Shown piece after piece: positions 7,917-8,714 of a stretch of DNA of 41,110 nucleotides. A program made the translations under genes and the position numbers. The stretch is from NCBI RefSeq assembly GCF_003334315.1, contig NZ_QOWR01000045.1, one strand, 5' to 3'. The number at the start of each line of letters is the position of its first letter. Within the stretch, counting starts at the first letter, position 1. Under the pieces are notes generated by a model. That model did no database searches. It had not been told where the DNA came from and was given only the letters and a program-made list of their open reading frames with translations. This DNA is from Escherichia coli (GTDB lineage Bacteria; Pseudomonadota; Gammaproteobacteria; Enterobacterales; Enterobacteriaceae).

Positions 7917-8714
7917 AACTTGCTCCTTAGCCGTTATCGTTTCGAATATGTCATCCTTTTCATTATTTACATCCTTGTCCGAATCGTTGTTCAATATAGT
8001 AAACGCCTATAAGAACTTTACCCTTCGTGAACTAATACGTCTATTAACACTAATCAATACTTCAGATTTATCCATCACGCACTCCATATATTGATCCTAA
8101 GTAAGATTCCTGGTTGTTATCAGCTTGTAAATAGCAAACAAAAAGTTAACGTTTGCGGATTACTGCCCAAGAATAAGTTATCAATAACCAGTTTGTGATC
8201 TCTGAAGAATATTACTAAAGTTAAAATGTAATCCGATTTAAATATCGAGTCTCCTTGTTTCGACTTAAGCTGGCAATTGGATTGCCAGCTTTCTTTTAAC
8301 GCATTGAAATTACCTGAGTAAATAACGCATTCATGTCTTCAGGTTTTTATATAGCGTCTGGAGACACGGATATTTATGCAATGTAATCAACGCCAGTTGC
8401 AAAAAAATGAACCCGGATTACTTATTTAACCGCCCATAGCATCAACGCTTACGGAACTCTTTGTTCACTTTCCCACAGCACTTTTAAAACATTAAACCTG
8501 ACAACGGAAAATATCAGCCATGATAATGTTTGAAATGGCTAATTTGCCATAGAGTGAAAAAAATTAGATGAAATTCAGTAGGTTGAAATAATCACTAGCA
8601 GGTAATTATTTCAATGATAGTGCGCAATTGATCTACAACACTGCGTAGCGGAGAGAGTATTAATCGGATCATAGTCACATCAAGTGACTATGATCCGGGT
8701 GACAACCGGGGTAA

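What the first reader, a model, noticed from the sequence alone, without database searches (positions are those of the whole stretch)
8665..8697. Perfect 14-bp palindrome immediately downstream of hdeD
CGGATCATAGTCAC-ATCAA-GTGACTATGATCCG lies 17 nt past the hdeD stop, at the distal edge of the long gadE upstream regulatory region. It has no U-tract, so it may act as an RNA 3' stabiliser or a protein-binding palindrome rather than a classical terminator.
Basis: seen in the sequence. Interest (0 to 1): 0.2.

Follow-up and report, generated by a model that had tools for sequence, protein, structure and literature searches.

The report
hdeD mRNA 3'-end protective hairpin
The perfect palindrome just after the E. 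coli acid-resistance gene hdeD is real and conserved, and it is most likely an ordinary RNA hairpin that marks and protects the 3' end of the hdeD message, which is a known kind of element.

Summary
Window 8665-8697 is a perfect 14-bp inverted repeat with a 5-nt spacer, 17 nt past the hdeD stop on the minus strand, and no U-tract follows it. Chance does not produce such a repeat: no shuffle out of 100 gave a stem longer than 12 bp. It is single-copy and present in 5413 of 5426 complete E. coli genomes. A hairpin is kept at this site across Escherichia species, with compensatory changes at three base pairs, while the neighbouring intergenic DNA diverges beyond alignment. Published Term-seq data (Adams et al. 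2021) place an RNA 3' end on the hdeD strand 4 nt after the stem (window 8661). It was filed as "orphan" because it lies more than 50 nt past the gene. The 150 nt downstream are C-rich and G-poor. The same study calls a Rho termination region 112 nt further on, although that call is confounded by the gadE promoters. This matches the known class of U-tract-less stem-loops that cap Rho-terminated mRNAs after 3' exonuclease trimming (Dar and Sorek 2018). GadE/GadW/GadX ChIP-exo shows no peak on the palindrome. Verdict: a real but ordinary new member of a known kind, and of low interest. The Rho dependence and the stabilising role are inferred, not shown.

The parts
8665..8697 (-). Perfect 14-bp stem with a 5-nt loop. 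As RNA on the hdeD-sense strand it reads CGGAUCAUAGUCAC-UUGAU-GUGACUAUGAUCCG.
   Evidence: -23.5 kcal/mol. It is conserved with covariation.
8661..8661 (-). Published Term-seq RNA 3' end (MG1655 U00096.3 position 3657621, + strand), 4 nt after the last paired base.
   Evidence: Adams et al. 2021, Supplementary file 1, third sheet, average 1150 reads. The register was checked by mapping five table entries from both strands onto the window.
8715..9287 (-). hdeD coding sequence. The hairpin caps its mRNA.
   Evidence: ORF. RefSeq annotates it as hdeD in matching genomes.
8698..8714 (-). 17-nt spacer between the hdeD stop codon and the stem. It is variable within E. coli and is 35-37 nt long in E. 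albertii, E. whittamii, Escherichia sp. E1V33 and strain E69.
8515..8664 (-). C-rich, G-poor tract of about 150 nt directly downstream of the hairpin, a candidate Rho loading (rut) region. Its first 11 nt (UUAAUACUCUC) are invariant in 14 E. coli-clade sequences.
   Evidence: C:G is 32:19 over 150 nt. C exceeds G in the first 60 nt in all seven other Escherichia loci.
8549..8549 (-). Peak position of a published Rho termination region (MG1655 3657733, + strand; Rho score 6.8, p 2e-20), 112 nt downstream of the 3' end.
   Evidence: Adams et al. 2021, Supplementary file 2. The call is ambiguous because the downstream counting window includes the gadE promoters.

Best explanation
The palindrome works as RNA, on the hdeD-sense (window minus) strand. 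When hdeD is transcribed, the sequence folds into a stable 14-bp hairpin 17 nt after the stop codon. RNA polymerase does not stop there efficiently because there is no U-tract. It runs on into the C-rich, G-poor, untranslated start of the hdeD-gadE spacer. There Rho probably loads and releases the transcript, somewhere in the 100-200 nt before the gadE P3 promoter. 3'-to-5' exonucleases (PNPase, RNase II) then trim the tail back to the foot of the hairpin, leaving a discrete steady-state 3' end 4 nt past the stem. That end protects the hdeD mRNA from further decay. A side effect is that hdeD transcription is kept out of the gadE sensory region. Shown: the hairpin, its conservation by covariation, and a mapped 3' end at its foot. 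Inferred: Rho as the terminating factor, exonuclease trimming, and stabilisation.
For: The hairpin is perfect and far beyond chance, and it folds at -23.5 kcal/mol. A Term-seq 3' end on the hdeD strand lies 4 nt after the stem. By comparison, the 3' end lies 6 nt past the stem, at the end of a U-tract, at the neighbouring arrS intrinsic terminator. No U-tract follows the stem. In 11 distinct haplotypes from E. coli, E. albertii, E. whittamii and other Escherichia, 94.8% of cells pair, against 23-46% for slid controls. Three pairs show changes on both sides: GG-AU...AU-CC becomes GC-CU...AG-GC, and the closing pair varies between C-G and U-A. Stem columns vary in 4 of 28 positions against 39 of 82 for flanking intergenic columns (Fisher p = 0.0017). 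The first ~90 nt of the spacer are otherwise not alignable between E. coli and the E. albertii group. C exceeds G for ~150 nt downstream in every Escherichia locus. A Rho termination region is called 112 nt downstream. This anatomy is what Dar and Sorek 2018 describe for Rho-dependent transcripts: a stable stem-loop, no U-rich tail, C over G downstream, and trimming by PNPase and RNase II.
Against: The 3' end appears in only one of three conditions, by sheet order M63 glucose, and at a modest read count of 1150. The Rho call is confounded. With bicyclomycin the downstream window holds more reads (475) than the upstream window (251), which read-through alone cannot produce. Induction of the gadE promoters must contribute. 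G-U wobble evidence does not pick a strand: E69 and E7-1N7 favour the sense strand, while E. whittamii, E1V33 and E. albertii carry an A-C mismatch on the sense strand that would be G-U on the antisense strand. No half-life, exonuclease-mutant or hairpin-mutant data exist for hdeD in the literature I could search.
Confidence: 0.6

Rival explanations
1. It is a weak, non-canonical intrinsic terminator. The long perfect hairpin alone dislodges a fraction of polymerases at the AUUAAU stretch, without Rho, and the mapped end is the termination product, perhaps nibbled by a few nucleotides.
For: The hairpin is stable and sits at the end of a gene. The 3' end is mapped at its foot. There are 3 U in the first 6 nt after the stem. 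Dar and Sorek note mixed or transitional terminators. Kluyvera cryocrescens also has a U-less 11-bp hairpin after hdeD, between convergent genes.
Against: The tail has only 3 U in 8 nt and fails the terminator scan. The 3' end is only 4 nt past the stem, closer than the 6 nt seen at the neighbouring arrS terminator. The stem is only 50% G+C. The other long perfect hairpins in the window carry A/T tracts, while this one does not.
Confidence: 0.2
2. It is a DNA palindrome bound by a dimeric regulator at the distal edge of the gadE control region, or a cruciform or nucleoid-protein nucleation site.
For: It has perfect dyad symmetry. The inner half-sites CATAGTCAC/GTGACTATG are conserved across Escherichia. 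Wobble evidence does not favour one RNA strand. The region lies in an H-NS/StpA-occupied domain (PMC11230228).
Against: GadE/GadW/GadX ChIP-exo peaks upstream of gadE are at window ~8535-8570 and ~8462-8486, and none lies on the palindrome. Outer-stem changes are complementary on both arms, which pairing requires and a protein site does not. The stem's identity of about 86% is no higher than the 88% of the gadE-proximal half of the spacer, so no special sequence constraint is needed. The GATC sites are not conserved. The TCAC-N5-GTGA arrangement is the reverse of a CRP site (my own knowledge of the CRP consensus). All known gadE start sites lie at -566 or closer (PMC3708157).
Confidence: 0.07
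3. It acts on the opposite strand, as a barrier or backstop terminator for transcripts that read through the arrS terminator toward the antisense of hdeD. It could also be bidirectional.
For: The antisense hairpin is at least as stable, and it is perfect with G-U pairs in E. albertii, E. whittamii and E1V33. On that strand a second small hairpin and UAAUUAUU follow it, and the scan flagged this. arrS is very highly expressed on that strand.
Against: No 3' end on that strand near the palindrome appears in the Term-seq tables. The small follower hairpin is not conserved in the ABU 83972-type haplotype. The arrS terminator lies 370 nt upstream and is canonical.
Confidence: 0.06
4. It is a functionless palindrome kept symmetrical by quasi-palindrome template-switch correction during replication.
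For: Template switching can produce matched changes on both arms without selection (my own knowledge). The adjacent double change (pairs 3 and 4) could be a single event.
Against: The hairpin is present in 5413 of 5426 E. coli genomes and in every Escherichia species sampled, while its flanks were scrambled. Stem columns vary far less than flanks. An RNA 3' end maps at its foot.
Confidence: 0.05

Closest known systems
[quoted passage not shown] 2012 hypothesis; Dar and Sorek 2018, PMC6061677)
   Same: It has a stable stem-loop at the end of an mRNA, a steady-state 3' end immediately downstream, no U-rich tail and a C-over-G bias downstream. It is not a REP element, like 76% of that class.
   Different: Rho dependence and exonuclease trimming have not been shown cleanly for hdeD. 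The stem is unusually long and perfect (14 bp) and only 50% G+C.
Intrinsic (Rho-independent) terminators, such as the neighbouring arrS terminator at window 8267-8297
   Same: It is a hairpin at the end of a transcription unit with an RNA 3' end at its foot.
   Different: It has no 7-8 nt U-tract. The 3' end is 4 nt rather than 6-8 nt after the stem. It has no upstream A-tract.
REP (repetitive extragenic palindromic) elements used as mRNA 3' stabilisers
   Same: It is an extragenic palindrome downstream of a gene that can block 3' exonucleases.
   Different: It is single-copy in every genome, has no sequence resemblance to the REP consensus, and has no plasmid or phage copies.

Membership tests
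Protective 3' stem-loop of a Rho-dependent transcript (Dar and Sorek 2018 class) | An energetically stable stem-loop at the transcript end | tested here: met
   14 perfect pairs, -23.5 kcal/mol.
Protective 3' stem-loop of a Rho-dependent transcript (Dar and Sorek 2018 class) | A precise steady-state RNA 3' end immediately downstream of the stem | tested here: met
   A published Term-seq end lies at window 8661, 4 nt after the stem. It appears in one condition only.
Protective 3' stem-loop of a Rho-dependent transcript (Dar and Sorek 2018 class) | No uridine-rich tract after the stem | tested here: met
   The tail is AUUAAUAC, with 3 U in 8 nt, and the terminator scan did not accept it.
Protective 3' stem-loop of a Rho-dependent transcript (Dar and Sorek 2018 class) | C-over-G (rut-like) composition downstream | tested here: met
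   C:G is 32:19 over 150 nt. C exceeds G in all eight Escherichia loci.
Protective 3' stem-loop of a Rho-dependent transcript (Dar and Sorek 2018 class) | Read-through rises when Rho is inhibited (bicyclomycin) | tested here: inconclusive
   A Rho region with score 6.8 lies 112 nt downstream. However, downstream reads with bicyclomycin (475) exceed upstream reads (251), so gadE promoter induction confounds the call.
Protective 3' stem-loop of a Rho-dependent transcript (Dar and Sorek 2018 class) | Longer 3' tails in pnp or rnb exonuclease mutants | not testable with these tools
   This needs the GSE109766 coverage tracks or new RNA-seq.
Intrinsic (Rho-independent) terminator | A 7-8 nt U-rich tract directly after the hairpin | tested here: not met
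Intrinsic (Rho-independent) terminator | Termination by RNA polymerase alone in vitro | not testable with these tools
   This is an experiment.
REP or other repeated extragenic palindromes | Many dispersed copies per genome | tested here: not met
   There is one place per genome in 3935 genomes for the 43-mer and in 5413 genomes for the 81-mer.
GadE/GadX/GadW operator | In vivo occupancy by the regulator | tested here: not met
   The published ChIP-exo tables show no peak at U00096.2 3655608-3655640. The nearest peak is at 3655735-3655770.
Any curated Rfam RNA family | A covariance-model match | tested here: not met
   No hit on 8665-8697 at E <= 1.

The most novel reading that the evidence does not exclude
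The hairpin plus the conserved UUAAUACUCUC tail could be a regulated gate rather than a passive cap. hdeD is itself activated by GadE. Any condition that lets polymerase escape Rho here (acid, translation state, or an RNA-binding protein on the conserved stem) would then carry hdeD transcription through the 798-bp spacer into gadE. That would add a read-through positive-feedback arm to the acid-resistance master switch.
Probability: 0.07. Interest if true: 0.55.

Novelty: new member of a known kind. Interest (0 to 1): 0.15.

Why it matters
It assigns an "orphan" Term-seq 3' end to hdeD and explains a conspicuous palindrome at the edge of one of the most heavily studied regulatory regions in E. 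coli. In practice, gadE promoter constructs that use the full 798-bp spacer carry the hdeD 3' hairpin and its probable Rho loading tract. Reporter cassettes inserted directly after hdeD separate the gene from its 3' cap. Beyond that it is a routine example of how Rho-terminated mRNAs are capped.

Tried and rejected
- **Rfam:** a scan of 7000-10500 at E <= 1 gave nothing on the palindrome.
- **Repeat family or mobile-element relic:** rejected. The palindrome is single-copy in E. coli. The only plasmid hits are 4.8-4.9 Mb records that are clearly chromosomes, and there is no phage hit.
- **Dam/SeqA idea:** each arm carries a GATC site, but these are replaced by CCTC/GAGG in E. albertii, E. whittamii, E1V33 and E69.
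- **CRP-like site:** rejected, because the half-sites are in the reverse arrangement (sequence inspection plus my own knowledge of the consensus).
- **Small ORF:** the only candidate overlapping the stem is a 27-aa GTG ORF, with no support.
- **Promoter-like match:** the one at 8743-8714 (minus strand) scores 9 of 12, and such matches are no more frequent here than in shuffles.
- **Using G-U wobbles to pick the strand:** inconclusive.
- **Literature searches:** searches for hdeD with terminator, bicyclomycin, RIL-seq with 3' UTR, ProQ, or Rho-dependent termination found nothing about this element.
- **Other 3'-end datasets:** the supplements of Dar and Sorek 2018, Choe et al. 2022 and a 2025 3'-seq comparison are not held, and the TERMITe supplements have no hdeD entry.
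- **Older papers:** Sayed and Foster 2009 and Ma et al. 2004 are not held.

Full report
**Context.** The window is the E. coli acid fitness island in reverse orientation.
- mdtE is at 5893-7050 (minus strand).
- gadE is at 7389-7916 (minus strand).
- hdeD is at 8715-9287 (minus strand).
- hdeA is at 9542-9874 (plus strand), followed by hdeB and yhiD (RefSeq annotation of identical DNA).

The hdeD-gadE spacer is 798 bp, as in the literature (PMC3708157).

**Observation.** Arms 8665-8678 and 8684-8697 are 14 nt long and fully complementary, with a 5-nt spacer. The stem begins 17 nt after the hdeD stop codon.
- Only two perfect 14-bp hairpins exist in the 41-kb window. In 100 Markov shuffles none exceeded 12 bp.
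- On the hdeD-sense strand the tail after the stem is AUUAAUACUCUCUCC. The terminator scan rejects it.
- The other long perfect hairpins in the window carry A/T tracts.
- The hairpin alone folds at -23.5 kcal/mol. Its context has z of about -4 on both strands.
- There is no Rfam match.

**Distribution.**
- A 241-nt query around the site matches 5413 of 5426 complete E. coli genomes, with a median of one place per genome (one genome has two because IS903B interrupts the query) and always on the chromosome. Shorter queries give the same picture, exactly one place per genome.
- The plasmid hits are mislabelled chromosomes, and there are no phage hits.

So it is not a REP-like or mobile repeat.

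**Conservation within E. coli.** I fetched divergent E. coli haplotypes.
- The roughly 1300-genome haplotype that includes ABU 83972 is only 81.5% identical over 81 nt.
- It still keeps the stem. The closing pair changes from C-G to U-A, three of the five loop bases change, and the flanks are heavily substituted.
- In the 14-sequence alignment, 4 of 28 stem columns vary against 39 of 82 flanking intergenic columns (Fisher p = 0.0017).

**Conservation across Escherichia.** A scan of species-representative genomes with HdeD returned loci from E. albertii, E. whittamii, two unnamed Escherichia species, two divergent "E. coli" representatives and Kluyvera cryocrescens.
- In all the Escherichia loci hdeD is followed by gadE in the same orientation, 720-798 nt away.
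- Between E. coli and the E. albertii group the gadE-proximal half of the spacer is about 88% identical. The first ~90 nt after hdeD cannot be aligned except at the hairpin, which sits 35-37 nt after the stop in that group instead of 17 nt.
- There the stem reads (C/U)GCCUCAUA(A/G)U(C/U)AC...(G/A)UGA(C/U)UAUGAGGC(G/A). Pairs 3 and 4 have flipped from G-C and A-U to C-G and C-G by matched changes on both arms.
- On 11 distinct haplotypes, 94.8% of cells pair against 23-46% in slid controls. Three pairs change on both sides, and no shuffle out of 500 reaches the observed covariation score (a 9-sequence version is).
- The number of independent events is small: one for pairs 3 and 4, and probably two for the closing pair.
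- Wobble pairs do not settle the strand. E69 and E7-1N7 have G-U pairs on the sense strand. E. whittamii, E1V33 and E. albertii have an A-C mismatch on the sense strand that would be G-U on the antisense strand.
- Kluyvera has an unrelated 11-bp U-less hairpin after hdeD, but there a gadE-like gene is convergent, so the context differs.

**Transcript evidence.** Supplementary file 1 of Adams et al. 2021 (eLife, PMC7815308) lists a curated Term-seq 3' end at MG1655 position 3657621 (+).
- Its average is 1150 reads and its class is "orphan". The flanking sequence contains the hairpin.
- I checked the register of the 61-nt strings (50 nt upstream, the 3'-end base, then 10 nt downstream) by mapping five entries from both strands onto the window. 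All five agree with the published coordinate spacings. The 3' end is window 8661 on the minus strand, 4 nt after the last paired base.
- It was labelled orphan because it lies 54 nt past the hdeD stop, beyond the paper's 50-nt limit for "primary" ends.
- It occurs once, in the third sheet. By the caption's order this is the M63 glucose OD 0.4 sample, and it is absent from the LB 0.4 and LB 2.0 sheets.

**Rho evidence.**
- On the sense strand, C outnumbers G for about 150 nt after the hairpin (32:19). The same bias holds in the first 60 nt of every other Escherichia locus.
- The 11 nt after the stem (UUAAUACUCUC) are invariant in the E. coli-clade alignment.
- Supplementary file 2 of Adams et al. 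lists a Rho termination region at 3657733 (+), which is window 8549, 112 nt downstream. The Rho score is 6.8 and p is 2e-20.
- I treat this as suggestive only. The 800-nt downstream counting window contains the gadE start sites, the most distal of which (T3, at -566) is at about window 8482. With bicyclomycin the downstream count (475) exceeds the upstream count (251), which read-through alone cannot produce.

**Comparison with the known class.** Dar and Sorek 2018 (PMC6061677) report that Rho-dependent E. coli transcripts end precisely, immediately downstream of stable stem-loops. These stem-loops are energetically like terminator hairpins but lack the U-rich tail, and they have C-over-G enrichment downstream. 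The ends arise by PNPase and RNase II trimming after diffuse termination further on. Only 24% of the stem-loops are REP elements.

The hdeD hairpin meets the four structural and positional criteria. The bicyclomycin criterion is inconclusive and the exonuclease criterion is untested. It fails the defining U-tract criterion for intrinsic terminators.

**Protein-binding rival.** The supplementary ChIP-exo tables of Seo et al. 2015 (PMC4918353) list GadE/GadW/GadX peaks upstream of gadE only at U00096.2 3655735-3655770 and 3655819-3655843. I anchored the coordinate offset on the table's own distances to the transcription start, which place that start at -566 from the gadE ATG. The palindrome is then U00096.2 3655608-3655640 and has no peak. 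The GATC sites in the arms are not conserved across the genus. Matched changes on both arms are expected for pairing, not for a protein site. No paper I could search discusses this palindrome.

**Conclusion.** The feature is real, non-random and under selection for pairing, and it coincides with a mapped hdeD-strand RNA 3' end. The best-supported reading is the 3' cap hairpin of the hdeD mRNA. Termination most likely occurs downstream by Rho, and exonucleases then trim the transcript back to the stem. This is a known kind of element, and the data point was already in a public table without interpretation. Interest is low. The one reading that would raise it is regulated read-through from the GadE-activated hdeD into gadE. 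That reading is not excluded, but nothing here supports it.

Noticed in passing
window 8267-8297 (+) and 8263 (-): The arrS terminator hairpin (11-bp stem plus UCUUUU) carries a published Term-seq 3' end at 8297 on the arrS strand. A second end lies at 8263 on the opposite (gadE-sense) strand, inside the long gadE T3 leader. The same hairpin therefore seems to end RNAs in both directions, which could mean premature termination or processing of the gadE T3 transcript.
   Followed up: partly
window 8583-8614: This is an inverted repeat, TTGAAATAATCAC/GTAATTATTTCAA, with 13-bp arms at 92% complementarity. It lies in a stretch that stays conserved across Escherichia, just upstream of the distal GadE/W/X ChIP-exo peak (about 8535-8570). 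It is a better candidate for a protein-binding palindrome than the one in the finding.
   Followed up: no
window 7200-7271 (-): Rfam ES205 sRNA matches here (105 bits, E 1e-18) in the gadE-mdtE spacer, which is the GadF region. A published Term-seq 3' end lies at 7201. RefSeq also annotates a 'hypothetical protein' ORF on the opposite strand (7092-7388), which is probably spurious.
   Followed up: partly
window 9156 (-): A published Term-seq 3' end lies inside the hdeD ORF, 131 nt from the start codon (MG1655 3657126). No hairpin precedes it. It may be a processing product linked to the known CyaR/RprA control of hdeD.
   Followed up: no
L005 (E. coli Z1324SEC0014), locus 3273-4196: An IS903B copy is inserted at the very 3' end of hdeD. 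It changes the HdeD C-terminus and separates the gene from its hairpin and from the gadE control region.
   Followed up: no
L010 (NZ_JAUFQN010000010.1, labelled Flavobacterium paronense): This 8.6-kb contig in a Flavobacterium assembly carries E. coli hdeD (98% identity), the hairpin and gadE. It is almost certainly contamination, and it has indel errors.
   Followed up: no
window 8694-8710 (+): A small hairpin, CCGGGTGACAACCGGG, is followed by GTAATTATT on the strand antisense to hdeD, and the scan flagged it as terminator-like. It overlaps the end of the palindrome and is not conserved in the ABU 83972-type haplotype.
   Followed up: partly
window 23966-23997: This is the only other perfect 14-bp hairpin in the window (AAAGCAGGGTAGCG-ATAA-CGCTACCCTGCTTT). 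It has AAA and TTT ends, like a bidirectional intrinsic terminator.
   Followed up: no
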